This document shows positions 38,988-56,009 of a stretch of DNA of 64,000 nucleotides, one piece after another (the stretch's first letter is position 1; every line of letters starts with the position of its first letter). A program made the position numbers and the translations under genes. The notes under the pieces are model-generated. The model was not told the DNA's origin. It did not search any database and saw only the letters and a list, made by a program, of their open reading frames with translations. Source of the stretch: Marinobacter sp. (GTDB lineage: Bacteria; Pseudomonadota; Gammaproteobacteria; Pseudomonadales; Oleiphilaceae); contig NZ_JBQDKB010000011.1 in assembly GCF_052094685.1 (NCBI RefSeq), positions 505 through 64,504 of the forward strand. Direction: 5' to 3'.

Positions 38988-39196
38988 GGGGGATTGTCCT
39001 GTATTTTCAGGGTTATTCTTATAGTCTCAGTAGCTAAACAAACACCACCGGTGCAACCTTGTCAAGTTGACCGGTGGCTTAGCTGGCTATTTAACATTCT
39101 GCACGTAAAAACCGCTACTTGCATTCGTGGGTTCGAAGACCTCTAATACTTAGTGGTGTAAATAAAAGGCAAGAGCCTCTTTGGAGCAGTAACACA

Positions 39197-39691
39197 GTGA
39201 GCAACTACGAGCACGTACTGGTAGCACTTCGGCGAGTTATTCGGGCAACAGATCTACATTCCAAGCGTCTTAGCAAGAATGCCGGGCTTACCGGCCCGCA
39301 GCTATTAATTATGCGAACCATTCGGGAGCTAGGCGAGGTTACCATCGGTACCATTGCCGACAAAGTAAGCTTAAGCCAGGCTACCGTAACAACGATTCTT
39401 GATCGCCTAGAGCACAGGCAACTGGTTTATCGTGTTCGTAGCACCCAAGACAAGCGCAAGGTTCATGCTCACCTGACTGAGGAAGGCGCAGACATACTTT
39501 CCCGCGCGCCCAACCCGTTGCAAGAAGAGTTTATTAAAAAGTTTCAGAACCTTCATGAGTGGGAGCAGAATATGATTCTGGCCTCTCTTCAGCGGGTGGC
39601 CAACATGATGGATGCCGACGATATTGATGCCTCGCCTGTGTTGGATGTAGGCCCGGTATTGAAGGACGATGGCTGGAATGAAAAGGCGTAA
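39197..39691 (+). CDS. MarR-family regulator, CosR/EctR-like
   Basis: 'LRRVIRATDLHSKRL....GLTGPQL...SQATVTTILDRLE...DKRKVHAHLT...APNPLQ..F..L..WEQ'; GTG start at 39197. Confidence 0.8.
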   Translation: MSNYEHVLVALRRVIRATDLHSKRLSKNAGLTGPQLLIMRTIRELGEVTIGTIADKVSLSQATVTTILDRLEHRQLVYRVRSTQDKRKVHAHLTEEGADILSRAPNPLQEEFIKKFQNLHEWEQNMILASLQRVANMMDADDIDASPVLDVGPVLKDDGWNEKA

Positions 39692-39882
39692 ATTTTTCTC
39701 TCGATCTGGTCGGTGATGTAAGTGGCCCCGCAGATTGGGGGCGCAGCGAGCTTTATCTTGAGGATGAATTATTGGTAATGGTACACTGAGCGTACTATTC
39801 TATGCAGGAAATCGGTGCGGTCGCACAGCTTCTGATTTTCACGCTGGCGGAACTTGGAGTGGAGTTGTGCAGTTGATGATCT

Positions 39883-40671
39883 TTGCCGTATTTCATCAGC
39901 ACTCCATTGGAACAACCTGTGATCGCTATTAGTCAGCTTAAATTCAGTTACACATCATCGGCCGGCCCAGTGCTGACGGGAATTGATCTTGATGTGCCCG
40001 ACAGTGCGTTATTCGGTCTGCTTGGCCCCAACGGCGCCGGCAAGACTACGTTGTTGTCGATTTTGGCCGGTTTGATTCCGTGTCCGCAGCAGTCTGTTTT
40101 CATTAACCGCAAGGATCTGTCTACCCCGGCTGGTCGTGCTGCCTCTAGGCTTTCACTGGTGCCGCAGGAGTATGCCTTTTATCAGCCACTGACCGTGCGG
40201 GAAAACCTGGCATTTTTTGCCGGTGTTCAAGGCGTGCCGGCAAAGAACGTTGAACAGCGTATTCAGGAGGCGGTTGCACAGACCGGGCTGGCGGAGAGGC
40301 TAAATAGCCGCGCGAGCAAATTGTCCGGAGGGCTCAAGCGCCGGTTGAACCTGGCAATCGGTTTGTTGAACCGCCCTCGCTTGTTGTTACTGGATGAACC
40401 AACGGTGGGCATTGACCCCCACTCCCGGCACTTTATTCTTGAAACTCTTCGAAGCCTGGGCGCTACCGGTACCACAGTGATTTACACTTCCCATTACATG
40501 GAAGAGGTGGAAGAACTTTGTGATCATGTGGCTATTATGGACCACGGTCGAATACTCCGTAGCGGCGCCTTGGTTCAATTGTTGGCCGAGGCGCCGCAAA
40601 CGGGGCATCGTCGCAAATCCAGCCTCGAGTCCCTGTTTCTCGATCTCACTACTCGCGATCTGAGGGACTGA
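39883..40671 (+). CDS. ABC exporter ATP-binding protein
   Basis: 'GPNGAGKTT', 'LSGGLKRR', 'LDEPTVGID', 'SHYMEE'. Confidence 0.92.
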   Translation: MPYFISTPLEQPVIAISQLKFSYTSSAGPVLTGIDLDVPDSALFGLLGPNGAGKTTLLSILAGLIPCPQQSVFINRKDLSTPAGRAASRLSLVPQEYAFYQPLTVRENLAFFAGVQGVPAKNVEQRIQEAVAQTGLAERLNSRASKLSGGLKRRLNLAIGLLNRPRLLLLDEPTVGIDPHSRHFILETLRSLGATGTTVIYTSHYMEEVEELCDHVAIMDHGRILRSGALVQLLAEAPQTGHRRKSSLESLFLDLTTRDLRD

Positions 40672-40672
40672 G

Positions 40673-41848
40673 ATGGGCGTTATGATCGCACTGATCCGCA
40701 AAGAATTTCTGCTACTGTGCCGCGATCCCCACGGCTTGCTGTTGCTGTTTGTGATGCCCGCCGTATTTGTGTTGATCATGACTTTTGCCTTGCAAAACCA
40801 GTACGCCATAGACAAGGACGTGACGCTGGATTTCCTGCTTTTTAGTGAGGATAACAGCGGGCTCAGTACTGCCTTTGCCCGGGAGCTGGCTACTATGGCT
40901 CCCTTGCAAAGGGTGCCCACACAAAGCAACTGGCAGAAAATGCAGGCTCTGGCACAAGCAGATAAAGTGAAGTTTTTGGTCCGGGTGAAACCCGGATTTG
41001 ATCAGTTGCTTATTGATGGTGAACCGGCGGTCGAAATTCTGTTTTCACCAGGAACGTCGCCAGTATTTGCCAGTGTTGCACAGGCCCGGGTGACAGAACT
41101 ATTGAACCGGCTGTACCTGCGTTATCGGTTGGCAACCATGCCGGGGGTGCAAAGTAGCTTGGTAGCCAATGCCTCGGATCTCGTTGAGGCCAGCTCCCTG
41201 TATGATAACAGTGGCGCCTTGCCGTCATCGGTGCAGCAGAATGTGCCCGCCTGGCTGCTGTTTGCCATGTTTTTTATCGCCATTCCTCTGTCGACCACTC
41301 TGATCAACGAGCGCCAGCAGGGTACCTTGTTGCGGCTGCAAAGCATGGGTGTCGGCCCGGCGCAGCTGCTGGCCGGTAAAGTGATTCCGTTTTTCATTGT
41401 CAACTTGCTACAGGTGGCGGTATTGTTCCTGATCGGCCTATATCTGATTCCGCTGCTGGGTGGTGATCAACTGACTCTGGGCGCAAATCCCGAGGGTTTG
41501 GTACTGGTGGCAGTGGCCGCTAGCCTGGCGGCGGTGAGCTATGCTCTTTTGATTGCGCAGATCGCCAAAACCATTGAGCAGGCCACCATTGTTGCTGGCG
41601 TTCTTAACATCATTATGGCGGCGCTTGGCGGCGTAATGGTCCCCAGATTTTTGATGCCTGATGCCATGCGGGAAATAGGCAGCTATTCGCCTATGTCCTG
41701 GGGGCTCGATGGTTTCTTTGACATCTTATTACGCAATGGCACAGCGGTTGATGTGCTGCCGGAAGTGGGTGCCTTGTTGGGGTTTGCAGCGCTTATGCTG
41801 AGCCTTGCGATAGGCATGTACCACCGTGCCGCACCTGAACGAGGGTAA
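40673..41848 (+). CDS. ABC-2 type exporter permease
   Basis: 'IRKEFLLLCRD' N terminus, periplasmic loop, 'SSVQQNVPAWLLFAMFF', six TM segments. Confidence 0.9.
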   Translation: MGVMIALIRKEFLLLCRDPHGLLLLFVMPAVFVLIMTFALQNQYAIDKDVTLDFLLFSEDNSGLSTAFARELATMAPLQRVPTQSNWQKMQALAQADKVKFLVRVKPGFDQLLIDGEPAVEILFSPGTSPVFASVAQARVTELLNRLYLRYRLATMPGVQSSLVANASDLVEASSLYDNSGALPSSVQQNVPAWLLFAMFFIAIPLSTTLINERQQGTLLRLQSMGVGPAQLLAGKVIPFFIVNLLQVAVLFLIGLYLIPLLGGDQLTLGANPEGLVLVAVAASLAAVSYALLIAQIAKTIEQATIVAGVLNIIMAALGGVMVPRFLMPDAMREIGSYSPMSWGLDGFFDILLRNGTAVDVLPEVGALLGFAALMLSLAIGMYHRAAPERG

Positions 41849-41853
41849 ATCAA

Positions 41854-42138
41854 ATGACGGCCAACAACATGAGTGATGGTATGAACACGTCGCAACTTAA
41901 AACGGAACTCAAGGAGTTAATTGTTGAGGAATGCGATGTGGAAATTGGGGCCTGCGATATTCAGGATGACGAACACCTGATCGGACCGGATAGCCGGCTG
42001 AATCTGGATTCGTTGGACGCTCTGAGCATATCTCTGGAAGTGAAAAGCCGCTACAAAAAACATATCGACAGTGGTAACGAAACACGCATGGCATTGACCT
42101 CGGTAGCGACCTTGGCCGAATTTATTCTTGCTGACTAA
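41854..42138 (+). CDS. Acyl carrier protein
   Basis: Small acidic protein with phosphopantetheine motif 'LDSLDAL'. Confidence 0.9.
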   Translation: MTANNMSDGMNTSQLKTELKELIVEECDVEIGACDIQDDEHLIGPDSRLNLDSLDALSISLEVKSRYKKHIDSGNETRMALTSVATLAEFILAD

Positions 42139-42159
42139 CATCGGGCTATTGAGCGCTCA

Positions 42160-43335
42160 ATGAAAGACCTGAATCAATCAACAAAAGTACCCGTAAGAAT
42201 TGTCGCCAGCGGCCTTGTCAGTGCTCTGGGTAATGGCAAATGCAGCAATCTCACCGCGCTGTTCAGGGACACAGCCGCCGCCCCGGGCCGGTTGTCTTTG
42301 AAGCTTCTCGAAGAGCCTGTGGATATTCCTTACCATGCAGTTTCCGGAGCCCCAGAGGCAGCAGAAAATCGCTTGCACTGGTTACTGGATCAGGCGATCA
42401 ATGAGCTATTGACTGAACACCCCTTGGCCCGGGAGCAACGCGCGACTATTCCGGTATTTATTGGTTCTTCCTGTTGGGGAATCAGCATTGCCGAGGAAGA
42501 GTATCGCCAGCAATGCCACGATAACCCAGACACTGCCATTCCGATGCCGCTGGACGGCCTCAGCCAAATTAGCCGGTATCTGCAAAAACAGTTCGGCTTT
42601 CACGGTGCAGACTTTGCGCTCAATACCGCCTGTACAGCCACTGCCAACGCCATACTCAGCGCGGCGGCGGCCATTGGTGCCGGGATCAGTGACCATGCTC
42701 TGGTGGTTGGCCTGGAAGTCCGAAACGATACCACTTTGGCCGGGTTTCATGGCATGCAATTGTTGGCACAAGACAACATGCGCCCATTTGATCGGCAGCG
42801 TGACGGCTTGGTGTTGGGTGAGGGTTGCGGAGCCATGCTTTTGTCAAAGTGTGAAAGCCACGACTCAGGTGTTTTGATTTTGGGTGGTGCCAGTAACTGC
42901 GATACGTTTAGCATTTCCGCTTCTAACCCGGATGGCAGCACCATTGCGGCGGTGATGGCTGACGCGATGGGCCGGAGCGGCCTTGCGCCTTCCGACATTC
43001 AGGCAATCAAGGCCCATGGTACCGCTACGCCCCTGAATGATGATGGCGAAGCCGCCGGCATGCGCTGCGTTTTTGACACAGTACCGCCGTTTTTCTCCCT
43101 GAAGGCGGCGCTCGGGCATACGCTGGGAAGTTGTGGCGTGATGGAAACCCTGTTAGTTGCTGCGGCCCTTCCTCGAGGCAGACTGCCGGCCAGTGCCGGA
43201 TTTTCCGAGCCTGACCCAAGCCTCGGTGTGGCGCCGATATCACAGCCGCTACTGGTGGGCCCTGGTAATTATTTGCTGAACTTCTTCGGGTTTGGGGGCA
43301 ATAACTCCAGCCTGATTATCCGCTATCAAGATTGA
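42160..43335 (+). CDS. Beta-ketoacyl-ACP synthase (KS, ApeO/FabF-like)
   Basis: Cys-His-His triad: 'NTACTAT', 'KAHGTATPLND', 'KAALGHTLG'. Confidence 0.9.
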   Translation: MKDLNQSTKVPVRIVASGLVSALGNGKCSNLTALFRDTAAAPGRLSLKLLEEPVDIPYHAVSGAPEAAENRLHWLLDQAINELLTEHPLAREQRATIPVFIGSSCWGISIAEEEYRQQCHDNPDTAIPMPLDGLSQISRYLQKQFGFHGADFALNTACTATANAILSAAAAIGAGISDHALVVGLEVRNDTTLAGFHGMQLLAQDNMRPFDRQRDGLVLGEGCGAMLLSKCESHDSGVLILGGASNCDTFSISASNPDGSTIAAVMADAMGRSGLAPSDIQAIKAHGTATPLNDDGEAAGMRCVFDTVPPFFSLKAALGHTLGSCGVMETLLVAAALPRGRLPASAGFSEPDPSLGVAPISQPLLVGPGNYLLNFFGFGGNNSSLIIRYQD

Positions 43336-43336
43336 G

Positions 43337-44242
43337 TTGACCCCGGGATTCGAACTTATGCTCGATATTATTGCCATAGGAGACTACTACCAGGGCGTTG
43401 ACCCCGATCAGGGGCTGACCGATATGAGAGCCGCTGCCACGGAAGCGTGTTGCGAGCGCTTTCGACGCATTGACCGGTTCACTCAGATGGCACTGATTGG
43501 TTCGGCCCAATGTGTTGAAGGCGCTGAAGTTAAACCCGATGCGGGGTTGTACATCGGCTCTCGATTTGCCTCCTTGGGCAGCATCACGAAAGTTCATGAG
43601 CAGATGGTTGGTAGGGGTTCGGTGCCAAAGCCCGCCAATTTCATCAACACGCTGAGCAACTCGGCAGGCTATTTTGTTGCGCGCAACCTTGGGTTGCGCC
43701 ATCGTAACCTGTTTGTCTCACGGGGCGATGCCTCGATGGTTGCTGCACTGCAACTGGCGGCCATGGATGTAAGCACGGGCGCCGTATCTCAGGCATTAGT
43801 GGGGGTCGTGGAAGAGGCGGTTTTGCCGCTTGAACATCATCATTTTCGTCTCGGGGTGGAACCGGGTACGGAAATTGGCGAGGGCAGTCACTGGTTATTG
43901 GTGGCGCCTGAGGGCAGCGCCGATAGCCTTGCCTCGATAACAGACATGATTACTCTGGTAGACGAGCAGGCGCTGGATCAGTGGTTGAACCAGCTCGACC
44001 CGGCTACCGAGTACCGAGTGTCTCTGTCGCCCTGGACTCGGCAGCGAATAACCTCGAGCTGTTTGCAAAACCGGCCGCGGCTCAGAGGCTTTGATCCGGC
44101 GCTGGCCGTGTATCCGGGCTACGTTGCCGGTGCAACGATTCGCTATCTGCAGTCGGGTGAAGCCTCACCCCTGATTGTTATTGCCGCCGATACCGATGGC
44201 CGTTTTCACGCTATTGTTGCTTGGCCCAAGCGGGCGAATTGA
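43337..44242 (+). CDS. Chain-length-factor-like, catalytically inactive ketosynthase
   Basis: 'RRIDRFTQMAL', 'FINTLSNSAG'; no TAC catalytic motif; follows the KS gene by 1 bp. Confidence 0.65.
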   Translation: MTPGFELMLDIIAIGDYYQGVDPDQGLTDMRAAATEACCERFRRIDRFTQMALIGSAQCVEGAEVKPDAGLYIGSRFASLGSITKVHEQMVGRGSVPKPANFINTLSNSAGYFVARNLGLRHRNLFVSRGDASMVAALQLAAMDVSTGAVSQALVGVVEEAVLPLEHHHFRLGVEPGTEIGEGSHWLLVAPEGSADSLASITDMITLVDEQALDQWLNQLDPATEYRVSLSPWTRQRITSSCLQNRPRLRGFDPALAVYPGYVAGATIRYLQSGEASPLIVIAADTDGRFHAIVAWPKRAN

Positions 44243-44247
44243 AGGTG

Positions 44248-45240
44248 TCAGCGCAATTTGAGCTCCAGCAGTTGCCGGTAACCCTGTTGTTCCATATCGG
44301 CCACGGTGCGCAGTTGCGTGGCCAGCTTGCTGTAGTCCAGCGCAGTGCGTCCCTTGAGCATCTTCGCCGCATAAAGCGCAAAGCGGCGCCACTCATCACC
44401 GGCGTCGGTGAACTGGTCAGCGGCTTGCGCCAGGCCTTCATGAGAAAGCAGGTGTGCCGATTCCTGCAAGAACGAAGCGAACAGAAAACGGAAGCCGGCA
44501 CCGCCAGTGCCAATCTCTTCTTGCATGCGCACCATATGGCCGATAAGCAGCTTGTTGTAATGCTCATTGGCGGGCGACAGCTTATCCATGTGCCGGGCAA
44601 CGTGGCGGATGCCGCTCACACCGATAAACGGCAGGGGCGTGCGCGTCATCATATTAGCGGTTGAGCGAATGGCGCGGGGAATGGCTGCGGTTAAATCCGG
44701 TGTCTGCGTGATGGTTTCCGGGTAATAAATCAGCCCTTTCGGAGCCAACATCCCTTTGACGAACCTTGCCCGCTGAAGGGAAGCAACATCTGCCCGAACC
44801 GGCTGTTCGAACGTTGGGTCGCTGATCAGGTAGTCATCGCCCTCTTTACCGTAGGCCACCATGTTGTGAGCATTGAAGTGGAAGCGCATGTTTTCCGGGA
44901 AGTAGGGCAGCCAGTAAACCGATGCCTGCAGGCCTACCGGGGATCCTTGTTCCAGGTATTTGTCCAACGCTACTGTTCCATCTTTCGGGTTGCGGAAGCG
45001 CTGAAAATGGAAGCGTATGCCCAAACGCTTGCTTAGTCCGCGAATGATGCGGCCCGGAGGCATGCGGTAGGCCAGTAGCGGCATGCCGCCCACCCTCACC
45101 AACGGAATGTAGGCGTAGGTGAGGGCGGAGGACAGCCCGAATACCATGGGTTCGGACAGGTCGAGACCGTTATGGCGCAGCAGGGCTGCCACGGCACCGC
45201 TTTCGCAGTGGGCGGTTTGCTGGTGGTTGAAATCAGTCAT
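44248..45240 (-). CDS. BtrH N-terminal/DUF4872-type papain-fold protein
   Basis: 'HQQTAHCESG' (Cys) and 'FHFNAHNMV' (His); found in DAR/flexirubin-type clusters. Confidence 0.8.
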   Translation of the reverse strand: MTDFNHQQTAHCESGAVAALLRHNGLDLSEPMVFGLSSALTYAYIPLVRVGGMPLLAYRMPPGRIIRGLSKRLGIRFHFQRFRNPKDGTVALDKYLEQGSPVGLQASVYWLPYFPENMRFHFNAHNMVAYGKEGDDYLISDPTFEQPVRADVASLQRARFVKGMLAPKGLIYYPETITQTPDLTAAIPRAIRSTANMMTRTPLPFIGVSGIRHVARHMDKLSPANEHYNKLLIGHMVRMQEEIGTGGAGFRFLFASFLQESAHLLSHEGLAQAADQFTDAGDEWRRFALYAAKMLKGRTALDYSKLATQLRTVADMEQQGYRQLLELKLR

Positions 45241-45652
45241 TTTGTGGTGTGTCTTCCGGCGGGAGTGTGCGCAGTTGCTCGGCGGTCATCTGCAGCGCCT
45301 CTTCATAACGCCGCAGCTTGTGTGGTGCCAGGCCTTTGAAAATGGCCGGTTTCAGGTGCCGGCGGACCTGCCAGCGAAAAAAGCCTGTGGCCTGAGCCAG
45401 AATTGTCACATCCATCCGATGTGCGTACATGTGGTACTCGAGCACAGAGCAGAGCCGCAAATTCGCCCGCTCACGGGCCTCACGGGCAAAGCGGTTATAT
45501 TCTTCTACCGCCTGATCCAACACCACGTCCTCGGCTTCCCAGCCACTGGATAGCGCCGTGGTGTATTCGCCGTTGGCGTCTCGGGCATACAATCGTTTCT
45601 TTTGACCTTCGAACGATTGCGATTCGTCTTGGGGCACCTCGTCCAGCTTCAT
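45233..45652 (-). CDS. Conserved hypothetical protein of darB clusters
   Basis: 'MKLDEVPQD...SSGWEAE...LEYHM...RMD...LAQATG..RWQVRRHLKP'; overlaps both neighbours. Confidence 0.75.
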   Translation of the reverse strand: MKLDEVPQDESQSFEGQKKRLYARDANGEYTTALSSGWEAEDVVLDQAVEEYNRFAREARERANLRLCSVLEYHMYAHRMDVTILAQATGFFRWQVRRHLKPAIFKGLAPHKLRRYEEALQMTAEQLRTLPPEDTPQND

Positions 45653-46806
45653 GAGAGGCCCTGATGATCACAGACAGTTAATTGCATAAAAGATGAGGCG
45701 AAACGGCCACTTTCAGGCACCCAGCAAAGCAGCTTCTGACCGGGTTCCAGTTTGCCAGACTGGTACAGTTCCTCAAGCATGATGTAGATCGATGCAGAGC
45801 CTGTGTTGCCTTTGTGGGATAAATTAGTGGCCCAGCGTTCGAATGGAATATCCAGCCCGCCTTTCTTTAGGCCCTCATAGGCCCGCTCGCGGAAGTAGCC
45901 AGACGAATAATGCGGAAGAAACCAATCGATATCATCGCCAGACAGTTGATATTTTTCGGTTATTTCGGGCAGATACTGCTCGATAGTGGTCGAAACAATG
46001 TGTTCGTTCAAAAGGCGAACATCTTGCTTGACGGCAAAGATCGACTCCTTCAGCCAAGTTTCGTGAGACAGATCTTTCCAGCTTTCCAGGCTGCCGTCTT
46101 CGCGCTTGCGAGCGCCCGCGTACATGCAGGCATCCAGCTGATTGGCAAAGGAGCGAAGTTCGATCCAGTCGATTCTCAATGACAGGCCTTCTTTGGCTGG
46201 AGTGGGCTCAAGGGCAACCGCACCTGCGCCGTCTGACAGCATCCAGCGCAAGAAATCTTTATCAAAGGCCACTTCCGGCTTTTTTTCAAGGCTGTCTAAC
46301 GAGGCAACAGTCTCTGGCTCGAACAACTTGCCGCGCATGACCGCCGATGCCACTTCCGACCCCGTACTCACCACTCGCTGATGCTGACCTGTGGCAACTG
46401 ACATCCAGCCGTACTTAAGTGCCGACATTCCGGCCAGGCAGACACCAGCGGTTGCTGCTACCTCGCAAGGAGGGGAGGCCAGTTCGCCGTGAACCATAAC
46501 CGCATGGCTGGGCATCAACTGGTCGGGCAGGCTGGTTCCGCAAACTAGGCAATCCATGGCTTTGCTGTATGGGTCGCCCAGTGCGCGAATAGCTTCGGCA
46601 GTCAGTTCCGCGTTGGTATGCGTGCGCTCGCCGGTCTTCGGATCCACTGCGTAATACCGGTTTTTGATCTTGTTACTTTTCAGGATCACCCGCCGTGCTC
46701 GTGAAGGCTGAGCGCCAGCCTGGCCGAGCACCGATTCTATGTCGTCGTTACCAACAGGTTCATTGGGCAGTGCTGTGGCGATAGCGGTAATGTAAACGTT
46801 TTGCAT
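45649..46806 (-). CDS. darB: DarB/StlD-type KAS III (beta-ketoacyl-ACP synthase III)
   Basis: 'LMPSHAVMVHGEL', 'AGVCLAG', 'FLRWMLSDGAGA', 'HYSS', 'KGNTGSAS', 'VPESGRF'. Confidence 0.88.
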   Translation of the reverse strand: MQNVYITAIATALPNEPVGNDDIESVLGQAGAQPSRARRVILKSNKIKNRYYAVDPKTGERTHTNAELTAEAIRALGDPYSKAMDCLVCGTSLPDQLMPSHAVMVHGELASPPCEVAATAGVCLAGMSALKYGWMSVATGQHQRVVSTGSEVASAVMRGKLFEPETVASLDSLEKKPEVAFDKDFLRWMLSDGAGAVALEPTPAKEGLSLRIDWIELRSFANQLDACMYAGARKREDGSLESWKDLSHETWLKESIFAVKQDVRLLNEHIVSTTIEQYLPEITEKYQLSGDDIDWFLPHYSSGYFRERAYEGLKKGGLDIPFERWATNLSHKGNTGSASIYIMLEELYQSGKLEPGQKLLCWVPESGRFASSFMQLTVCDHQGLS

Positions 46807-46861
46807 GTATTAAACAGCTCGGTAACTGGCCGGGGCCGGAAAATTAAAAAAACCTAGGGTC

Positions 46862-47782
46862 TTAATCACCTGAAGGCGCACTGAAATAAGCTTTTTGCCG
46901 CGCAATGCGCTTGCGTGTAAATGGCGAAAGCAAGCGCTTGATTAGCATGCCTGCCGGAACCACTGTCAGAATCATGGCCACCAGGAAAACCGAATAAAAC
47001 ACCAGCACCGGTTTGCGTTGCCAAGCTCCTCGAGGCCCGAGTGCCCGAAGCAGCCGGCCCCAAATGCGAAACGCTCGCTTGCCAGTTCTTTCACTGGAAA
47101 TCAGCCCCTCGTTGATACGCACGGCTGCCAGCCCCCGGAGCATGTCTGGAGATACTTTTTCTTTAACTCTCAACCGGTCGCGAATACGTCGGCCAAAGCG
47201 TTCACTGTCGACCATGGCCTTCTCTGAAACGCCGGCCTTTGGGATTAGGCCACCCCAGAACGGCCCTTTGCGCCCAGTGAGCACCCAAAGAGGCGTGGCA
47301 AAAAAGCTCAGCAGCGAGCCTGCTTCATCCACCATGGCCACATTGCCCACCAGGCTGGCATTCAGCTCCGTTAGCTTCTGCTTCATATCTTCTTGGGCCA
47401 TCAGCCACATATTTCGGCAGGCAATCAGCGTAACCACGGGCGTGTTGTCAAGCAACTGCCTGGCAACCGGATGCTGAAGAAACGCCGTCATTGGAAGAGC
47501 AGGGGAAAGAAACCAAACCTGATACGCCAGAATGACAAGATCAAAATTCTCATCACCAGACACGCCCGGCGCTTCAATAGGGGGCGGGTCCAGATAGACA
47601 GATTCGGGAAACGTATCGAGAAATGTCAGAAAGGGCCACGGAAACGGGAAATCCTCTACCGGCTTGATGTTTTCGAATGTCACCGAAACGTCATCCGATT
47701 CGACCAGTGGTCGCGTAAATTCCCGCACGACATTATCGAGCTGCCCGCTCTGGGAATAGTGTACGACCAGAACCTTCTTCAT
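46862..47782 (-). CDS. darA: Dialkylresorcinol condensing enzyme
   Basis: 'VHYSQSGQL', 'FPFPW', 'YQVWFLSP', 'CRNMWLMAQ', 'RFGRRI'; ATG at 47782. Confidence 0.9.
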   Translation of the reverse strand: MKKVLVVHYSQSGQLDNVVREFTRPLVESDDVSVTFENIKPVEDFPFPWPFLTFLDTFPESVYLDPPPIEAPGVSGDENFDLVILAYQVWFLSPALPMTAFLQHPVARQLLDNTPVVTLIACRNMWLMAQEDMKQKLTELNASLVGNVAMVDEAGSLLSFFATPLWVLTGRKGPFWGGLIPKAGVSEKAMVDSERFGRRIRDRLRVKEKVSPDMLRGLAAVRINEGLISSERTGKRAFRIWGRLLRALGPRGAWQRKPVLVFYSVFLVAMILTVVPAGMLIKRLLSPFTRKRIARQKAYFSAPSGD

Positions 47783-47909
47783 TGTTAGTTTCCAGAATTC
47801 TGTGCCAGAATCGCGTGAATTAAAATTCTTCACGCCCTTCATATTGTTTGGGCGCGCGACTATAACACAGGACAATTTTCATCTGAATCCTCCCGGTAAA
47901 GTTGAAGTC

Positions 47910-48650
47910 ATGCAATTTGATTTTGAAGTATCTGGGGCCCATCGGGCCTTCCCCGGCCATTTCCCAGGCGCCCCGGTTGTACCGGCGGTGGTATTAATTG
48001 AGTACATGACACGGGGGCTGGAGCAGACAACCGGAAAGCCGGTAACCAACATTCGACAGCTGCGCCTGCTGAGCCTGATAGCGCCTGACAAGCGGGTTGA
48101 CGTTGAATGCCAGGAGAAAACACCCGACTCCTGGCGACTAACGTGCACCGTCGCCGGCGAGCCTGTAGCGAAAGCCATATTCAGCAGCGAGCAACTTCAA
48201 ACCGGCACAGATAGGCACCTGCAGTGTGACCAGCCGAGATATCAATCTGCCCAAGCGGTTTATGATCGGTTACCCCACGCGGATGCTATGCAACTGATCG
48301 AGAAATTTGCTCTTATTGATAATGGTGCCCAAACCCGGGCAACCATCACCAACAATCACCCGCTTGCTGATACACATGGCCTGCCTGCGTGGGCAGCACT
48401 GGAATACGCCGCACAACTGATGGCATGCCGAAAACTCAGCATGGGCGGCGAGCCAATGAGCAGGGCAGTCATCGTGCTGGTGCGTGCGTTGCGTCGCTAT
48501 ACGGTTGAATCAATGCCGGCGGAAGGAGAGCTGATGGTGGAAGTTACTGAGAGAGTCGCGCAGCCAGGCGCGGTTCAGTGCGCGTTCACCGCAGCTTACG
48601 GTGAGGAGCGGATTGCAGCCGGCGAGTTTACCGTTGTCAGCGGCGTTTAA
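47910..48650 (+). CDS. Double hot-dog dehydratase (ApeI-like plus ApeP-like fusion)
   Basis: N half 'FPGHFPGAPVVPAV'; C half 'LPHADAMQLIE...LPAWAALEYAAQ'. Confidence 0.75.
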   Translation: MQFDFEVSGAHRAFPGHFPGAPVVPAVVLIEYMTRGLEQTTGKPVTNIRQLRLLSLIAPDKRVDVECQEKTPDSWRLTCTVAGEPVAKAIFSSEQLQTGTDRHLQCDQPRYQSAQAVYDRLPHADAMQLIEKFALIDNGAQTRATITNNHPLADTHGLPAWAALEYAAQLMACRKLSMGGEPMSRAVIVLVRALRRYTVESMPAEGELMVEVTERVAQPGAVQCAFTAAYGEERIAAGEFTVVSGV

Positions 48651-48677
48651 AAATGAGCTGCTTAACGAGCCGATACT

Positions 48678-48705
48678 CTTGAATTCCGAGGCCGGTACCC
48701 AATAT
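48678..48705 (+). promoter_or_regulatory. Sigma32 promoter of cnoX/ybbN
   Basis: CTTGAAT-N13-CCCAATAT. Confidence 0.7.
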
Positions 48706-48742
48706 AGACTCTAATCAATAGTGAACATTTCAGGTGCCTAAC

Positions 48743-49606
48743 ATGAGCAGTTCTCCCCATATATTTGAAGCCACCATGGAAAACTTTCAGCAGGAGGTTA
48801 TGGAAGCCTCCTCTGCCACGCCCGTGCTGGTGGATGTTTGGGCCGAATGGTGTGCGCCCTGTAAGCAGCTTATGCCTGTGTTGGAAAAGCTCGTAGACGA
48901 ATACCAAGGTGCATTCCGCCTTGCCAAAGTGAATGCGGAGGAGCAAGAGCAACTTACCGGCAGTTTGGGTGTGCGTAGCCTACCAACGATTATTTTGGTG
49001 AAAGATGGCCAGGCTGTAGACGGCTTTAACTCAGCCCTGCCAGAGAGCGACATTCGCAAGATTTTAGAGAAGCATGTAGAGCTACCCGAAGAAGACCCAT
49101 ACGAGAAGGCCCACCGCATTTGGAACGAGGGCGACGTAAACGGCGCGATGGACATTCTTTCTGACATGAACCAGAAAGATCCAGAAAACCTAACAGTGCT
49201 AATTGACCTAGCCCAACTAAAAGCAGAAACCGGTGATCTTGAAACCGCTGAACAGGTTCTTAAAAGCCTGCCGCCAGAAGAAAAGCTGCAACACCAAGCA
49301 AAGCAACTGGCAGCCAGAATTAAGTTTTTGAAGCAGTCTGCCGAGCTGCCGCCTGTGAAAGATCTGGAAATGGCATTGGAACAAGACCCAAAAGATCCGA
49401 ACGCCTTGCACTTGCTGGCTCTGCACCATGTTTTGCAAGACAAAAATGCAGAAGCTATGGAGCTACTGATTCGGTTGATGCAGGTAGACAGCAAATACAA
49501 AGATGAAGTGGCTAAGACTACGTTGGTTGAGCTGTTTGAGAAGCTTGGGAACAGTAATCCGGATGTGCGCACCTATCGGCGTAGGCTTTATATGTTGATG
49601 CATTAA
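48743..49606 (+). CDS. cnoX: Chaperedoxin CnoX/YbbN (thioredoxin plus TPR)
   Basis: 'WAEWCAPCKQL' thioredoxin motif followed by TPR helices ending 'YRRRLYMLMH'. Confidence 0.88.
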   Translation: MSSSPHIFEATMENFQQEVMEASSATPVLVDVWAEWCAPCKQLMPVLEKLVDEYQGAFRLAKVNAEEQEQLTGSLGVRSLPTIILVKDGQAVDGFNSALPESDIRKILEKHVELPEEDPYEKAHRIWNEGDVNGAMDILSDMNQKDPENLTVLIDLAQLKAETGDLETAEQVLKSLPPEEKLQHQAKQLAARIKFLKQSAELPPVKDLEMALEQDPKDPNALHLLALHHVLQDKNAEAMELLIRLMQVDSKYKDEVAKTTLVELFEKLGNSNPDVRTYRRRLYMLMH

Positions 49607-49777
49607 TCGCAATAGCCCGCTGTGGGGCGTTCAAAAATACCCCGCAGTTGGCTGGCCTCAGATATATATAGAAACACGATTTTACTCTATTTGACTTTTC
49701 GTCCTGTCGTATTGGGCTACTATCTTCCGTGAAACATGAATGGCGTTTAATAATAAGCCTTTATCACGGAGAAGATA

Positions 49778-51805
49778 ATGAAACCTGCCTTCAAAAAAGC
49801 TGCTTTATCAATTGCTGTCGCTTCAACACTTGCTCTCGCCGGTTGTGGCGGTTCGTCTGGCTCTGGGTCGACACCGCCACCCGCTAATACTTCTTCAGCA
49901 CCTGCATCGTCTGTAAGTGGTGCCGCAGTAAAAGGAATTGTTAGTAATGCCGATGTAACGGCTTATGACTTGGATAATGGCAACGCAGTCGTAGGCGCTG
50001 CGACCACTGATCAGAATGGTGAGTACGAAATCAGCCTTGCTGACAATTACAGCGGTGGCCCCCTCAAAATCATTGTAACGCCTAGTGCTGCATCCAAAAT
50101 GGTCTGTGATGCTGTCTCCAGCTGCGGAAGCGTTGCTAAAGGCGAGGAGCTCGATTTACCTCAGGGGTTCAGCCTTTCGACGATCACCGCCAACACCAAA
50201 GGCCAAGATAAAGTTAGCGCGCCAGTAACTGCCTGGACGACGATTGCGGCCAAACGTGCTGAAAAGCTGATTTCTGAAGGCAAATCTACTGCAGGCGCCG
50301 CAGGCATCGCCAATGCAGAAGTTTCCCGTGCAGCTGGTTTTGATATTGAGCGCACTAAGGCAAAGAGCATTACGTCAGCGGATATCAGCACGGCGTCTGG
50401 CGACCAGCGCAAAGCGGCTTTAATGAATGCGGTTGTAGCAGAGGCGATTTTCAAGCCTGCCCCAGCAGGTGGTAATGCAGATTTTGTTGCAAATCTTGAA
50501 CAGCTGTCTACCGCATTTGAAGACGGTGTATTTGGATCTGAAGACACCAGTAGCGAAGAAAACTCGCTCAAGCAGGCCCTGGCAGATGCCGCGAGCGATG
50601 TGGCTCGCGATCCCGAACTATTAACTTCCTTTGCAAAAGAAGTTAATAGTGTTGCAGAACGCCAAGTGGCGCTTGAGGAAGATAAGCCTTTGGCTGTGAA
50701 GGATCAGGTTAGTCAGAATGAAAGCGACTACACGGGTGACCGTGGGCAGAAGATTAACAGCTTCAAGAATTTTGTTGCTGACGTGCGAGCATGGGCACGG
50801 GCTATTGAAGGGCAGGATAGCGATGCTTTGGCAGCTGCAGTAAAGGTTGACCAGACAACGGTAAAAAATATCTTCAAGTCCACTACAGAAGGGCAGTTTG
50901 AATTTGCCGGGCTGGTGATTGAATCCGCGTTTGGCTTTTTAGCGGATAATCCGGAAGAAGCCAGCGCTCTGATCAAGAATGGTGGTAGCCGCACCGTCGA
51001 TGTGCTGGACGAGACAGATCAGAAAGTCGGGGAAATAGCTGTCGGCTTTTCTGGCTACCAAGGTGGCGTTCAGGTTCGACTTCAAGGTGCCGCTACTGAT
51101 TCGAACAACAATACGCTAGCTCCTCTTGATTTGACACTTCGTACCGATATCCCTCTGGATCTGGTGGCTAATCCTTACGAAGACGGCTCTGTGGATTTGG
51201 TTGTTAACAGGCTGGCGGCGCAAAGTAACATTAGTGTGTCTGGCACCCTGGGTGAATCTTTGATTGAGTTTAAAGATACAAAGCTGAATCTCGCTTTGAA
51301 CCAGCCATGGAATGCCTCATCAGCGGGCGGCCTGTTTGATGATCCAAACCTGGATGCCGAATTTAACAGCCGCTTTGTGTCTGCGCAATTCACCGGTGGC
51401 CTTGCCGTAACAAGCGTTGAAGGCGATCAGTTTGAAGGAAACGTAGATCTGAAATTGGTGCGGCTTGGCGATGCAGGTGCGGGGCGCAACTCTGCGCTGA
51501 CTCAAAGCCGGGTAGCATTGAAGAGTTTTGGTATGAATGGCGCATTCAAATCAGCGGATTTAAGTCATCAGTTCGAGGCCAGCGCCAAGCTGAACATCCG
51601 CAATGCCGACAAGTTCGATGTGGTTGCCTGGGCCGATTACAGCCGGCAGGCGCGCCCTGTGATGGTGAGTGTGCCTAACTCTGATGTGGGAGGGTTAATT
51701 CCCCAATTGGCAGAGCAACCTGTGATCGGGTTTGCAGAAGTTTATCCAGATTACGGTATGTCGGATCAGTTCAGCGTTTGGGGGGGGGGCATTTTACGCC
51801 ACTGA
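49778..51805 (+). CDS. Large lipoprotein, N-terminal part (frame shifts at the G10 tract)
   Basis: RBS GGAG; lipobox LAGC followed by a Gly/Ser linker; stops 5 codons after the G tract. Confidence 0.8.
   Translation: MKPAFKKAALSIAVASTLALAGCGGSSGSGSTPPPANTSSAPASSVSGAAVKGIVSNADVTAYDLDNGNAVVGAATTDQNGEYEISLADNYSGGPLKIIVTPSAASKMVCDAVSSCGSVAKGEELDLPQGFSLSTITANTKGQDKVSAPVTAWTTIAAKRAEKLISEGKSTAGAAGIANAEVSRAAGFDIERTKAKSITSADISTASGDQRKAALMNAVVAEAIFKPAPAGGNADFVANLEQLSTAFEDGVFGSEDTSSEENSLKQALADAASDVARDPELLTSFAKEVNSVAERQVALEEDKPLAVKDQVSQNESDYTGDRGQKINSFKNFVADVRAWARAIEGQDSDALAAAVKVDQTTVKNIFKSTTEGQFEFAGLVIESAFGFLADNPEEASALIKNGGSRTVDVLDETDQKVGEIAVGFSGYQGGVQVRLQGAATDSNNNTLAPLDLTLRTDIPLDLVANPYEDGSVDLVVNRLAAQSNISVSGTLGESLIEFKDTKLNLALNQPWNASSAGGLFDDPNLDAEFNSRFVSAQFTGGLAVTSVEGDQFEGNVDLKLVRLGDAGAGRNSALTQSRVALKSFGMNGAFKSADLSHQFEASAKLNIRNADKFDVVAWADYSRQARPVMVSVPNSDVGGLIPQLAEQPVIGFAEVYPDYGMSDQFSVWGGGILRH
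51780..51789 (+). repeat. G10 homopolymer at the frameshift junction
   Basis: TTT-GGGGGGGGGG-CATTTTAC; removing one G joins the two ORFs. Confidence 0.95.
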
Positions 51806-54103: not shown

Positions 54104-54110
54104 CTGGTAG

Positions 54111-54149
54111 CGGCTACCTGGGTCGAAAATCCCAGATAGCCGTATTTTT
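54111..54149. terminator. Hairpin between the convergent barrel and DEHAG genes
   Basis: CGGCTACCTGGG-N8-CCCAGATAGCCG followed by TATTTTT. Confidence 0.6.
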
Positions 54150-54213
54150 CTTACAAATCAGTTGAAAATCTTCTATATGGGATACGGCTACCAGCTATCT
54201 CAAAGAGTAAGCT

Positions 54214-54447
54214 TTAAGCTTCATCTCCCGCATGCTCGTCTGGTTCAGCTTCTTCTCCGGCATGCTCATCTTCTTCGTCTTCCGTCTTCGAATCCTCATC
54301 AGAATCCGCTTCTTGTCCTGCATGTTCATCACCACTGCTCTCTTCTACAGCCGTGCCACCATGTTCGTCCTGAGCAACAGCAACGCCACCAAAGGCGAGG
54401 GCGGCAAGCAGGAACATTAGATAGGTCATAGATTGGAGTGTTTTCAT
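54214..54447 (-). CDS. Small secreted acidic protein with DEHAG repeats
   Basis: Strong RBS (AAAGGAGA); signal peptide ending AVA; mature part is Asp/Glu-rich with DEHGG plus three DEHAGxEA repeats. Confidence 0.8.
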   Translation of the reverse strand: MKTLQSMTYLMFLLAALAFGGVAVAQDEHGGTAVEESSGDEHAGQEADSDEDSKTEDEEDEHAGEEAEPDEHAGDEA

Positions 54448-54513
54448 TTTAATTTCTCCTTTGGGTGTCAGTGCTACTTAGTTGTACGTGCTCTTGAATA
54501 TACGGGCAATGCT

Positions 54514-55308: not shown

Positions 55309-55322
55309 CGCTTCGCGCCTGC

Positions 55323-55883: not shown

Positions 55884-55973
55884 GCTCTGCTCCCACAGAT
55901 GAGTTTGTATAGGCTATTGGCTAATAGTAGTCCTTACGTTGGTTGGTGCAATTTGGATGCTTGGGGTGGGCAC

Positions 55974-56009
55974 AAAAAAGGGCCAGATGAATCTCTCCAT
56001 CTGGCCCTT
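55974..56009 (-). terminator. Intrinsic terminator after the KamA-family gene
   Basis: AAGGGCCAGATG-N8-CATCTGGCCCTT with an A6 run, giving a U tract on the minus strand. Confidence 0.8.

What the first reader, a model, noticed from the sequence alone, without database searches (positions are those of the whole stretch)
39883..48650. Dialkylresorcinol biosynthetic cluster with flexirubin-type accessory genes and its own exporter
darA and darB are established to condense two acyl chains into dialkylcyclohexanediones/dialkylresorcinols (Pseudomonas HPR antibiotic, Photorhabdus asymbiotica quorum signal, flexirubin head group). Here they are accompanied by the small hypothetical, a BtrH-like enzyme, an ABC-2 exporter, ACP, KS plus CLF-like protein and a dehydratase. 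That gene set is reminiscent of Bacteroidetes flexirubin clusters, but there is no aryl-starter ligase, ammonia-lyase, methyltransferase or ketoreductase. The likely product is an exported DAR/CHD, possibly carrying a custom unsaturated chain or ester, from a Marinobacter-like host for which I know no such compound. The genes lie in three transcription units (+, -, +) between two core-looking genes, which suggests an acquired or rearranged island.
Basis: partly seen in the sequence, partly recalled or inferred. Interest (0 to 1): 0.8.

Follow-up and report, generated by a model that had tools for sequence, protein, structure and literature searches.

The report
Resorcinol half of split pigment pathway
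This is the already described gene module that makes the dialkylresorcinol part of flexirubin/arcuflavin-type aryl-polyene pigments, found in a food-associated Marinobacter where it sits apart from its polyene partner genes, in the place where relatives carry a lon protease gene: an ordinary pathway in an unusual chromosomal position.

Summary
The genes are real and intact: ABC ATPase, ABC-2 permease, ACP, ketosynthase, inactive KS-like partner (+ strand); DarH (BtrH-like), DarG, DarB, DarA (- strand); a double-hotdog dehydratase (+ strand). The set is not a new combination. It matches, gene for gene by description, the dar locus of Azoarcus BH72 (arcuflavin, 2014). Its core, DarA-B-G-H, ABC ATPase, ABC permease, ACP and KS, recurs in 20 of 23 DarA loci from Marinobacter, Cellvibrio, Variovorax, Bacteroidales, Flavobacteriia and Chitinophaga.

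In nine loci from eight other Marinobacter lineages the module lies in one shared, different chromosomal context. In eight of these a second KS follows it, and where gene calls or ORFs were read that KS belongs to aryl-polyene (APE) genes. Here the module stands alone, but both MAGs that carry this exact locus also carry the 3' half of an APE cluster on another contig. That half holds tyrosine/histidine-type ammonia-lyase, halogenase, KR, two KS and LolA/MMPL. A related contig adds the ligase, ACPs and acyltransferases.

The likeliest product is therefore a membrane-bound aryl-polyene-dialkylresorcinol ester pigment, not a free exported DAR. The "island" idea holds. A 9.0-kb cassette occupies the place of the lon gene that 61 of 62 related contigs carry between marR and trx. 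This is a new member of a known kind, of modest interest.

The parts
39688..48675 (.). About 9.0-kb dar cassette. This segment has no counterpart in the empty-site relative L052, where a 2.57-kb lon gene lies instead.
   Evidence: In blastn against L052, homology stops at window 39687 (end of marR) and resumes at 48676 (upstream of trx). 61 of 62 related contigs have lon here and none has dar genes. Homology to the dar module of other Marinobacter runs from 39906 to 48643.
39919..40671 (+). ABC transporter ATP-binding subunit (DarF of Azoarcus naming)
   Evidence: PF00005, E 2.7e-28; DrrA/NodI-like in NCBIfam, below cutoffs. 63-79% identical orthologues sit at the same place in other Marinobacter dar modules.
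40673..41848 (+). ABC-2 type permease (DarI of Azoarcus naming)
   Evidence: PF12698, E 2e-36, and PF01061, E 3e-23. Conserved next to the ATPase in 21 loci.
41854..42138 (+). Acyl carrier protein (DarC)
   Evidence: NF006617 phosphopantetheine-binding, E 1e-9, below cutoff. DSL motif with Ser53. Conserved in the module.
42160..43335 (+). FabF/ApeO-like ketosynthase (DarJ)
   Evidence: PF00109 + PF02801. Best solved relative is 6QSP_A, deposited as 'Beta-ketoacyl synthase', E 7e-35; that it is the aryl-polyene KS of Xenorhabdus is from my own knowledge. FabF structures score nearly as well. Cys158/His286/His320 present.
43337..44242 (+). Catalytically dead KS-like partner (chain-length-factor-like; DarK)
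   Evidence: Only the N-terminal ketoacyl-synt domain matches, E 1e-7. Asp131 aligns with the FabF active-site Cys. Translationally coupled to the KS.
44248..45240 (-). DarH, a BtrH-related acyltransferase (DarE of Azoarcus naming)
   Evidence: NF053550, 480 bits (cutoff 300); PF14399 BtrH_N + PF16169 DUF4872. N-terminal His11-Cys12. No solved relative by sequence.
45233..45652 (-). DarG, a small conserved protein of unknown role (DarD of Azoarcus naming)
   Evidence: NF053536 DarG family, 159 bits (cutoff 70). No Pfam match. The single-sequence model is unreliable, pLDDT 50.
45649..46806 (-). DarB, the StlD/DarB-type cyclising ketosynthase
   Evidence: NF005293, 584 bits (cutoff 450). Full-length match to the StlD crystal structure 5GK0, E 8e-132, with Cys123, His299 and Asn334 conserved in the alignment.
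46862..47782 (-). DarA, the putative aromatase: a flavodoxin-like domain plus C-terminal hydrophobic helices
   Evidence: 5418 homologues; those that carry a name are called 'dialkylresorcinol condensing enzyme'. No Pfam or NCBIfam hit. The AF2 model (pLDDT 87) matches WrbA/PnpB/flavodoxin folds.
47910..48650 (+). Fused double-hotdog dehydratase (ApeI-like N half, ApeP-like C half)
   Evidence: FabZ-type H17-FPGAPVVP motif. The C half is 23% identical to the ApeP-like DH of the partner APE locus (E 3e-7). The N half matches the ApeI-like domain of the related contig L128 (E 1e-3). Precomputed Pfam labels are ApeI-like and ApeP-like.
39119..39691 (+). MarR-family regulator. It is a core neighbour, not part of the cassette, but now lies directly upstream of the ABC-ACP-KS operon.
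   Evidence: PF01047, E 2e-18. 75-96% identical orthologues lie between livK and lon in 62 related contigs that lack dar.

Best explanation
The region is the conserved dialkylresorcinol (DAR) module of an aryl-polyene-DAR ester pigment pathway of the flexirubin/arcuflavin type, in a Marinobacter known from food and food-fermentation metagenomes.

From sequence and published biochemistry of relatives: DarB is a close full-length relative of StlD. Enzymes of this family join a beta-ketoacyl thioester and an alpha,beta-unsaturated acyl thioester by Michael addition plus Claisen condensation, giving a carboxy-cyclohexanedione. DarA, a flavodoxin-fold protein with C-terminal hydrophobic helices, aromatises that product with decarboxylation to a 2,5-dialkylresorcinol.

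Inferred:
- The dedicated ACP with the KS and its dead partner makes the beta-ketoacyl-ACP by one elongation. No KR is needed for that step.
- The ApeI/ApeP-like dehydratase supplies the 2-enoyl-ACP.
- DarH, a BtrH-type ACP-to-acceptor acyltransferase, transfers the finished aryl-polyene acyl chain from its ACP onto a DAR hydroxyl.
- The ABC-2 transporter moves DAR or the ester across the inner membrane, towards the LolA/MMPL system of the polyene locus.
- DarG has no assigned role.

The polyene half lies on a different contig of the same MAGs. It holds an aromatic ammonia-lyase, halogenase, KR, two KS, an ApeP dehydratase, a thioesterase, LolA and MMPL. By analogy with a contig 89% identical in DNA, it also holds an AMP-ligase-ApeI fusion, two ACPs, acyltransferases and a glycosyltransferase.

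In this lineage the module occupies the marR-trx interval, where relatives carry a lon paralogue.
For: Family assignments above curated cutoffs for DarB, DarG and DarH.

DarB against StlD 5GK0: E 8e-132, with the Cys/His/Asn positions conserved.

DarA: 5418 homologues named DAR condensing enzyme where named, and a confident flavodoxin/WrbA-like model.

Intact motifs in the ACP, KS, DH and DarH; Cys replaced by Asp in the KS partner.

The same gene list is published for the Azoarcus BH72 dar locus. There the dar proteins gave DAR in E. coli, while the native organism made only the polyene-DAR hybrid arcuflavin and no detectable free DAR.

Module DarA-B-G-H, ABC ATPase, ABC permease, ACP, KS: complete in 20 of 23 loci across Gamma- and Betaproteobacteria and Bacteroidota. 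The other three lack part of it within the sequence held.

Other Marinobacter: in eight of nine loci a second KS (29-33% identical) follows the module. Gene calls for M. nauticus and ORFs of L007 show KR, ApeP-like DH and KS there.

Both MAGs with the 100% identical dar locus also hold an APE locus on another contig: GCA_052092625.1 on JBQDDX010000008.1 and ...38.1; GCA_052104795.1 on JBQEJG010000017.1 and ...59.1.

That APE locus fits the window's genome. GC is 0.54, and its tetranucleotide correlation with the window is 0.92. It is 77.6% identical in DNA to L007, against 76.5% for the dar part.

The upstream half of the APE cluster is seen in a contig 89% identical in DNA.

Mechanism of DarB, DarA and StlD from PMC6836626.
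Against: No chemistry or expression data exist for this organism, and no RNA runs were found.

Assignment of the two loci to one genome rests on MAG binning in two assemblies plus composition, not on a closed chromosome.

Physical separation and a new upstream region (39688-39905, next to a MarR gene) could allow DAR production independent of the polyene.

Per PMC3992019 (citing Fuchs 2013), darA and darB of C. pinensis alone gave a DAR in E. coli. So the roles given to KS/partner/ACP/DH, DarH, DarG and the ABC transporter are inference. The flexirubin paper itself proposed a ligase-like enzyme (FlxW), not a BtrH-like one, for ester formation.

The narrower NCBIfam model 'resorcinol_DarB' is missed (502 bits against 550).
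Confidence: 0.7

Rival explanations
1. One reading: the cassette works on its own and makes a free dialkylresorcinol or cyclohexanedione. Its ABC-2 transporter exports this as an antibiotic or a cell-cell signal, as in Pseudomonas HPR or Photorhabdus asymbiotica DAR/CHD-PauR.
For: The cassette is physically separate from the polyene genes and has acquired a new upstream region beside a MarR regulator. Dar proteins alone give free DAR in E. coli. The module carries its own transporter.
Against: By my own knowledge, the described signal/antibiotic systems are minimal darABC loci. This one has the DarG/DarH/ABC/KS set that accompanies polyene pigment clusters in every locus examined. The same MAGs encode an APE cluster. 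In Azoarcus, with the same gene set, no free DAR was detectable. MarR is a pre-existing core gene, not a cluster regulator that travelled with the genes. No LuxR-type gene was noted next to the cassette, and the rest of the genome was not searched.
Confidence: 0.13
2. The module's own ACP, KS with partner, and dehydratase build a short unsaturated acyl chain. DarH esterifies this chain to DAR. The product is a DAR ester unrelated to the APE locus.
For: The KS is closest to 6QSP_A, which I know as an aryl-polyene KS, among solved structures. The DH halves resemble ApeI and ApeP. DarH is a BtrH-type acyltransferase.
Against: There is no ketoreductase in the cassette, so iterative polyene extension would need a borrowed KR. 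The same ACP-KS pair sits in dar modules that lie next to full polyene machinery with its own KS, partner, KR and DH genes, which argues for a role specific to DAR. The PDB match to 6QSP_A is only marginally better than the matches to FabF.
Confidence: 0.1
3. The relocated cassette is a non-functional remnant left after the ancestral APE-DAR supercluster broke up.
For: It is separated from its partner genes and sits outside the flank that is syntenic in seven other Marinobacter loci.
Against: All eleven ORFs are intact, with catalytic residues in place. The sequence is identical across four metagenome assemblies and two MAGs. Proteins are 76-92% identical to M. gelidimuriae orthologues, with no frameshifts. 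Separate DAR and polyene loci are functional in Azoarcus and C. pinensis.
Confidence: 0.04

Closest known systems
Azoarcus sp. BH72 dar locus (azo0283-azo0293), the DAR part of the xanthomonadin-DAR hybrid arcuflavin (PMC3949708)
   Same: Same gene list: darA, darB, a conserved small hypothetical, a BtrH-like protein, ABC ATPase, ABC permease, ACP, KS, and a hypothetical after the KS. The DAR locus is also not contiguous with the polyene loci there. The dar proteins were shown to give DAR in E. coli.
   Different: Azoarcus carries an inserted Phd/PilT toxin-antitoxin pair, and no dehydratase is listed in its dar locus. Its polyene starter comes from a XanB2-type chorismatase, whereas the partner locus here has an aromatic ammonia-lyase. 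The comparison is by published annotation: the Azoarcus sequence itself was not retrieved here.
Flexirubin DAR loci of Chitinophaga pinensis (Cpin_6850/6851) and Flavobacterium johnsoniae (PMC3992019)
   Same: DarA-DarB-DarG-DarH, ABC ATPase, ABC permease, ACP and KS are present in the Chitinophaga deserti, Tamlana, Pseudotamlana, Brumimicrobium and Bacteroidales loci. In C. pinensis the DAR locus is likewise separate from the polyene (flx) cluster. The partner polyene pathway starts from an ammonia-lyase.
   Different: Only 35-50% protein identity. All genes are co-directional in Bacteroidota, while the gammaproteobacterial loci have the convergent +,-,+ layout and, in Marinobacter, an adjacent fused dehydratase.
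Contiguous arylpolyene-resorcinol clusters of other Marinobacter (M. persicus, M. nauticus ABH-585, M. gelidimuriae, M. oulmenensis, M. changyiensis); reported from antiSMASH for M. persicus in PMC12874462
   Same: Orthologous module: 63-92% protein identity for the ten genes other than the dehydratase (35-76% for the dehydratase), same order and orientation.
   Different: In eight of those nine loci a second KS follows the module, and APE genes were read there in two loci. All seven other loci compared share a syntenic flank with L007 (M48 peptidase, Fe-ADH, FtsX-type ABC, lipase). Here the module is alone between marR and trx, and the APE genes lie beside dctMQP on another contig.
Minimal darABC systems: Pseudomonas aurantiaca/chlororaphis HPR and Photorhabdus asymbiotica DAR/CHD-PauR signalling; StlCD of P. 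luminescens
   Same: Same core chemistry. DarB here aligns over its full length with StlD (E 8e-132), and a DarA homologue and an ACP are present.
   Different: Those systems release free DAR, CHD or stilbene. By my own knowledge they lack DarG, DarH, the ABC-2 transporter and the KS pair. No cluster-linked darS/darR or LuxR-solo regulator is present here.
Aryl-polyene (APE) type II PKS of E. coli and Xenorhabdus (ApeO:ApeC KS pair, ApeI:ApeP dehydratase pair; PDB 6QSP)
   Same: The KS with a dead partner, the dedicated ACP and the ApeI/ApeP-like hotdog dehydratase follow the same design. 6QSP_A is the top solved hit for the KS.
   Different: No KR, no ligase, no thioesterase and no LolA/MMPL in the cassette. 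The dehydratase is a single fused protein. Similarity is low (23-25% for the DH halves).

Membership tests
StlD/DarB cyclising ketosynthases | Full-length match to the curated family model above its cutoff | tested here: met
   NF005293: 584 bits against a cutoff of 450.
StlD/DarB cyclising ketosynthases | KAS III-type Cys-His-Asn catalytic residues, as in the StlD structure | tested here: met
   In the alignment to 5GK0 (E 8e-132), Cys123, His299 and Asn334 fall in conserved blocks. That these are the catalytic triad rests on my own knowledge of StlD.
StlD/DarB cyclising ketosynthases | Match to the narrower NCBIfam model 'dialkylresorcinol biosynthesis protein DarB' (NF053539) | tested here: not met
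   502 bits against a cutoff of 550. The protein belongs to the broad StlD/DarB family but not to the subgroup this exception-level model was trained on.
StlD/DarB cyclising ketosynthases | Condenses a beta-ketoacyl and a 2-enoyl thioester to a carboxy-cyclohexanedione | not testable with these tools
   Needs an enzyme assay. The activity is known for relatives (PMC6836626).
DarA aromatases | Homology to proteins annotated or characterised as DarA, encoded next to DarB | tested here: met
   5418 homologues with E <= 1e-5; the named ones are called 'dialkylresorcinol condensing enzyme'. Adjacent to DarB in all 22 loci that extend past DarA. Identity to the orthologue in Chitinophaga deserti, a congener of the characterised C. 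pinensis, is 38%.
DarA aromatases | Match to a curated family model | tested here: inconclusive
   No Pfam-A or NCBIfam model matched, even at E 10 in Pfam. The libraries seem to lack a model for this family, so this says nothing against membership.
DarA aromatases | Redox-cofactor fold compatible with oxidation of a cyclohexanedione | tested here: met
   In the AF2 model (pLDDT 87, pTM 0.88), residues of about 1-170 match FMN-dependent WrbA, PnpB and flavodoxins (E 1e-5, TM to target 0.52-0.67). Cofactor binding itself is not shown.
Extended dar module of polyene-DAR pigment pathways (Azoarcus dar locus; flexirubin DAR loci) | Gene content: DarA, DarB, small conserved protein, BtrH-like protein, ABC ATPase, ABC-2 permease, ACP, KS (plus KS-like partner) | tested here: met
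   All are present. The list matches Table 1 of PMC3949708. The same set is complete in 20 of 23 DarA loci.
Extended dar module of polyene-DAR pigment pathways (Azoarcus dar locus; flexirubin DAR loci) | An aryl-polyene cluster in the same genome | tested here: met
   Both MAGs with the identical dar locus hold an APE locus on another contig. Composition and divergence agree. This rests on binning, not on a closed genome.
Extended dar module of polyene-DAR pigment pathways (Azoarcus dar locus; flexirubin DAR loci) | Product is a DAR esterified to an aryl-polyene carboxylic acid | not testable with these tools
   Needs LC-MS or MALDI-MS of the pigment and a saponification or KOH test.
Minimal darABC signal/antibiotic systems (Pseudomonas HPR; P. 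asymbiotica DAR/CHD-PauR) | Compact darA-darB-darC locus with dedicated regulators or a cognate LuxR solo, releasing free DAR/CHD | tested here: not met
   The locus has eight additional genes typical of pigment-type modules. The only adjacent regulator, MarR, is a core gene also present in 62 relatives without dar. LuxR solos elsewhere in the genome were not searched.
BtrH-type ACP-dependent acyltransferases (DarH) | BtrH_N domain with the N-terminal catalytic Cys, and a match to the curated DarH model | tested here: met
   PF14399, E 5e-48; NF053550, 480 bits against 300; His11-Cys12 present. Acyl transfer to DAR is inferred, not shown.
Aryl-polyene type II PKS (Ape) components | Complete iterative set: KS plus partner, ACP, KR, DH pair | tested here: not met
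   KS, partner, ACP and a fused DH are present, but no KR lies in the cassette. The KR lies in the separate APE locus.

The most novel reading that the evidence does not exclude
In this lineage, cutting the dar module away from the polyene genes and placing it behind a MarR regulator may have uncoupled the two halves. The cell could then make free dialkylresorcinol (or a cyclohexanedione) as a diffusible antioxidant, antibiotic or signal under conditions where no pigment is made. That would be a natural intermediate between pigment-type and signal-type dar systems.
Probability: 0.12. Interest if true: 0.5.

Novelty: new member of a known kind. Interest (0 to 1): 0.25.

Why it matters
It corrects a tempting over-reading. 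The 'unusual' accessory genes are the standard, phylum-spanning dar module, and the apparently missing polyene genes lie elsewhere in the genome.

It predicts that a Marinobacter common in food and food-fermentation metagenomes makes a halogenated flexirubin/arcuflavin-like membrane pigment. No such compound has been described for the genus in the papers searched, and pigments of surface microbes can affect food colour (own knowledge).

The conserved but uncharacterised parts would be a tractable target in this compact 9-kb cassette. These are DarH as candidate esterifying enzyme, DarG, the KS with its dead partner, and the ABC-2 transporter.

The lon-for-dar replacement is a tidy example of a biosynthetic sub-cluster relocating within a genus.

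Tried and rejected
Laying runs X1-X4 on the L007 APE part at 80% likeness placed only short pieces of other homologous contigs. One of them carried a 33-nt indel relative to L007. Those depths are therefore not used. The link was settled instead by MAG membership.

2. DarG structure. The single-sequence AF2 model was too poor to search with (pLDDT 50). Pfam at E 10 gave nothing meaningful.

3. Solved relatives by sequence for DarH and DarA: none found.

4. Mobile-element signatures at the cassette ends. There are no flanking direct or inverted repeats beyond chance-level 14-27-mers. Promoter- and terminator-like sites were no more frequent than in shuffled sequence.

5. A lon remnant in the window: none.

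6. Expression: no RNA runs hold the locus.

7. Distant horizontal transfer was considered and rejected. The nearest relatives of every cassette gene are other Marinobacter (85% DNA identity to M. gelidimuriae). GC is 0.55 against 0.53 for the window, and the tetranucleotide correlation with the rest of the window is 0.89.

8. The precomputed Pfam labels ApeI-like and ApeP-like for the dehydratase were not reproduced by the local Pfam scan. Pairwise comparisons with the APE-locus proteins were used instead.

Full report
**What is in the sequence.** The stated interval holds eleven intact genes.
- On the + strand: an ABC ATPase (39919-40671; the ORF opens at 39883), an ABC-2 permease (40673-41848), an ACP (41854-42138), a FabF-like ketosynthase (42160-43335) and a 301-aa KS-like protein (43337-44242).
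- Convergent on the - strand: DarH (44248-45240; BtrH_N + DUF4872; NF053550, 480 bits against a cutoff of 300), DarG (45233-45652; NF053536, 159 against 70), DarB (45649-46806; NF005293, 584 against 450) and DarA (46862-47782).
- Divergent from darA: a 246-aa double-hotdog dehydratase (47910-48650).

Two reader coordinates need trimming. DarA starts at the MKKVLVVHYSQSGQL methionine and the dehydratase at 47910.

Catalytic features are in place:
- ACP: Ser53 in a DSL motif.
- KS: Cys158/His286/His320.
- DarB: Cys123/His299/Asn334, aligned over its full length with the StlD crystal structure 5GK0 (E 8e-132).
- DarH: His11-Cys12.
- Dehydratase: His17 in a FabZ-type HFPGxPVVP motif.
- KS-like partner: Asp131 in place of the active-site Cys, so it is a dead, chain-length-factor-like subunit.

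**DarA.** It matches no Pfam or NCBIfam model. It has 5418 homologues, called 'dialkylresorcinol condensing enzyme' wherever a name is given. A 40-sequence alignment gave a confident AF2 model (pLDDT 87). Its N-terminal domain resembles the FMN-dependent quinone reductases WrbA and PnpB and flavodoxins, and long C-terminal helices follow.

**Host and surroundings.** The window is core chromosome: dnaK, carB, infB, pnp and aceE. livKHM lies on one side of the locus and a thioredoxin-TPR gene on the other. The closest DarA in species-representative genomes is Marinobacter gelidimuriae (88%), then other Marinobacter. The locus is 100% identical at protein level in two NCBI MAGs and in several metagenome contigs. 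The runs that hold it are labelled food or food-fermentation metagenomes, and it is contiguous in four of them.

**The gene set is a known, conserved module.** Table 1 of the arcuflavin paper lists, for the Azoarcus BH72 dar locus, darA, darB, a conserved hypothetical, a BtrH-like protein, an ABC ATPase, an ABC permease, an ACP, a KS and a following hypothetical (PMC3949708). That is the same list, apart from an inserted toxin-antitoxin pair there and the dehydratase here.
- NCBIfam's 'DarG' and 'DarH' correspond by description to that paper's DarD and DarE.
- I ran tblastn with the window proteins against 23 DarA loci from Marinobacter, Cellvibrio, Variovorax, Rhizobacter, an uncultured betaproteobacterium, Bacteroidales, Tamlana, Pseudotamlana, Brumimicrobium and Chitinophaga. 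The set DarA-DarB-DarG-DarH, ABC ATPase, ABC permease, ACP and KS is complete in 20 of them. The other three lack part of it within the sequence held.
- The +,-,+ orientation is shared by all eleven gammaproteobacterial loci. Betaproteobacteria and Bacteroidota have the genes co-directional.

So the 'own exporter', the BtrH-like enzyme, the small hypothetical and the ACP/KS are standard parts, not a special combination.

**Where the 'missing' genes are.** In nine loci from eight other Marinobacter lineages the module lies in a different chromosomal context.
- In eight of them a second KS (29-33% identical) follows the ABC ATPase.
- Gene calls for M. nauticus ABH-585 and the ORFs of L007 show aryl-polyene genes there: KR, an ApeP-like dehydratase, a second KS, DUF3261 and a halogenase.
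- The far side of the module is a flank syntenic between L007 and six other loci.

The L007 APE ketosynthase led to P0132, 87% identical. The contigs that carry P0132 hold, in order: Lip_A acyltransferase, aromatic ammonia-lyase, 4HBT thioesterase, LolA, MMPL, halogenase, DUF3261, KS, ApeP-like DH, KR, KS. They end at dctMQP, with no dar genes.
- Such contigs occur in both MAGs that carry the window's dar locus. In GCA_052092625.1 the dar locus is on JBQDDX010000008.1 and the APE locus on JBQDDX010000038.1. In GCA_052104795.1 they are on JBQEJG010000017.1 and JBQEJG010000059.1.
- They also occur in three runs that hold the window's DarA: ERR12057302, ERR12057356 and SRR25395076.
- GC (0.54), tetranucleotide correlation with the window (0.92) and divergence from L007 (77.6% for APE, 76.5% for dar) are consistent with one genome.
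- A contig 89% identical in DNA shows the upstream half: PPTase, Ketoacyl-synt_2 partner, acyltransferase, two ACPs, an AMP-ligase fused to an ApeI-like dehydratase, and a glycosyltransferase.

The aryl-starter ligase is seen only in the related contig. No methyltransferase was seen in either. Separate DAR and polyene loci are already known from Azoarcus and C. pinensis. [quoted passage not shown]

**The island.** A metagenome scan with the thioredoxin-TPR protein returned 79 related loci.
- 62 of them contain both marR and trx. 61 of these have an 838-aa lon paralogue between the two genes, and none has dar genes.
- Against the closest such contig (L052), homology ends at window 39687 and resumes at 48676. 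An 8,988-bp cassette therefore stands where a 2,571-bp lon segment lies in that relative. No lon remnant is left in the window.
- MarR is a core gene (75-96% identical in relatives), not a regulator that arrived with the cassette.
- Homology to other Marinobacter dar modules runs from 39906 to 48643, nearly exactly the coding span.
- I found no flanking repeats or mobile-element traces.

The source is within the genus, not a distant donor.

**How it most likely works.** Published work on relatives shows that DarB/StlD joins a beta-ketoacyl and a 2-enoyl thioester into a carboxy-cyclohexanedione, and that DarA-type proteins aromatise it with decarboxylation (PMC6836626). Dar proteins from Azoarcus and C. 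pinensis gave DAR in E. coli, yet Azoarcus itself contains only the polyene-DAR ester. From the anatomy I infer the following.
- The KS with its dead partner, plus the ACP, makes the beta-ketoacyl-ACP. One elongation needs no KR, which fits the absence of a KR.
- The fused dehydratase provides the enoyl partner. Its C half resembles the ApeP-like DH of the partner locus (E 3e-7) and its N half the ApeI-like domain of the related contig L128 (E 1e-3).
- DarH transfers the polyene acyl chain from its ACP to a DAR hydroxyl. Its relative BtrH moves an acyl group from an ACP to an acceptor (own knowledge).
- The ABC-2 transporter passes DAR or the ester towards the LolA/MMPL system.
- DarG is unassigned.

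The partner locus has an aromatic ammonia-lyase and a halogenase. The predicted product is therefore a halogenated, tyrosine-derived aryl-polyene esterified to a 2,5-dialkylresorcinol.

**Rivals.**
However, the module is of the pigment type, and the adjacent regulator is a core gene that predates the cassette. I give this 0.13.
- A DAR ester built from a chain made by the module's own KS and DH: 0.10. The lack of a KR argues against it, as does the co-occurrence of this KS with full polyene machinery elsewhere.
- A decaying remnant: 0.04. The intact, invariant ORFs argue against it.

**Novelty.** Contiguous arylpolyene-resorcinol clusters in M. persicus have already been noted by antiSMASH (PMC12874462). 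No Marinobacter product was found in the literature searches. This is a new member of a known kind. Its only distinctive trait is the split arrangement, with the cassette in the place of lon.

**Limits.**
- There are no expression or chemical data.
- The link between the two loci rests on two MAG bins and on composition.
- The depth-covariance test failed for technical reasons.
- The Azoarcus and C. pinensis sequences themselves were not compared. Only their published tables and related species were used.

Noticed in passing
window 49700-56000: A second variable segment lies directly after trx. It holds three ORFs of 675, 432 and 357 aa with no Pfam match (the first two also have no NCBIfam match), a fatty-acid hydroxylase (54514-55308, -) and a 186-aa ORF. 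In most related Marinobacter contigs listed, trx is followed at once by the 454-aa gene (window 56038-57402) and aceE. Only L055 has the hydroxylase and the 186-aa gene. Gene calls for the 432/357-aa ORFs differ between contigs whose dar locus is identical.
   Followed up: partly
L052:7388-9904 (empty-site relative); absent from window 39688-48675: An 838-aa Lon-type protease gene is conserved between marR and trx in 61 of 62 related contigs. It is missing from the window, where the dar cassette takes its place. Whether this lineage keeps that lon paralogue elsewhere is unknown.
   Followed up: partly
window 47910-48650: The precomputed Pfam labels for this dehydratase (PF22818 ApeI-like, PF22817 ApeP-like) are not reproduced by the local Pfam-A scan, which reports only weak FabA/PKS_DH_N hits even at E 10.
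   Followed up: partly
window 44248-45652: There is a naming clash. NCBIfam's DarG and DarH (small conserved protein; BtrH-like acyltransferase) correspond by description to DarD and DarE of the Azoarcus BH72 paper. In that paper 'darG' and 'darH' are an inserted Phd/PilT toxin-antitoxin pair.
   Followed up: yes
L007:17896-18441: In the MAGs L007 and L014 a 181-aa membrane protein ORF lies between the dar ABC ATPase and the APE ketosynthase. By eye it looks like an isoprenylcysteine-carboxyl-methyltransferase; this was not tested. It is absent from M. nauticus at that junction and from both loci of the window's genome.
   Followed up: no
window 39000-49700, run X4: One metagenome (X4) shows a single A>G difference at 47941 in the dehydratase gene. 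Otherwise the cassette is invariant across four runs at word depths of 16-36.
   Followed up: no
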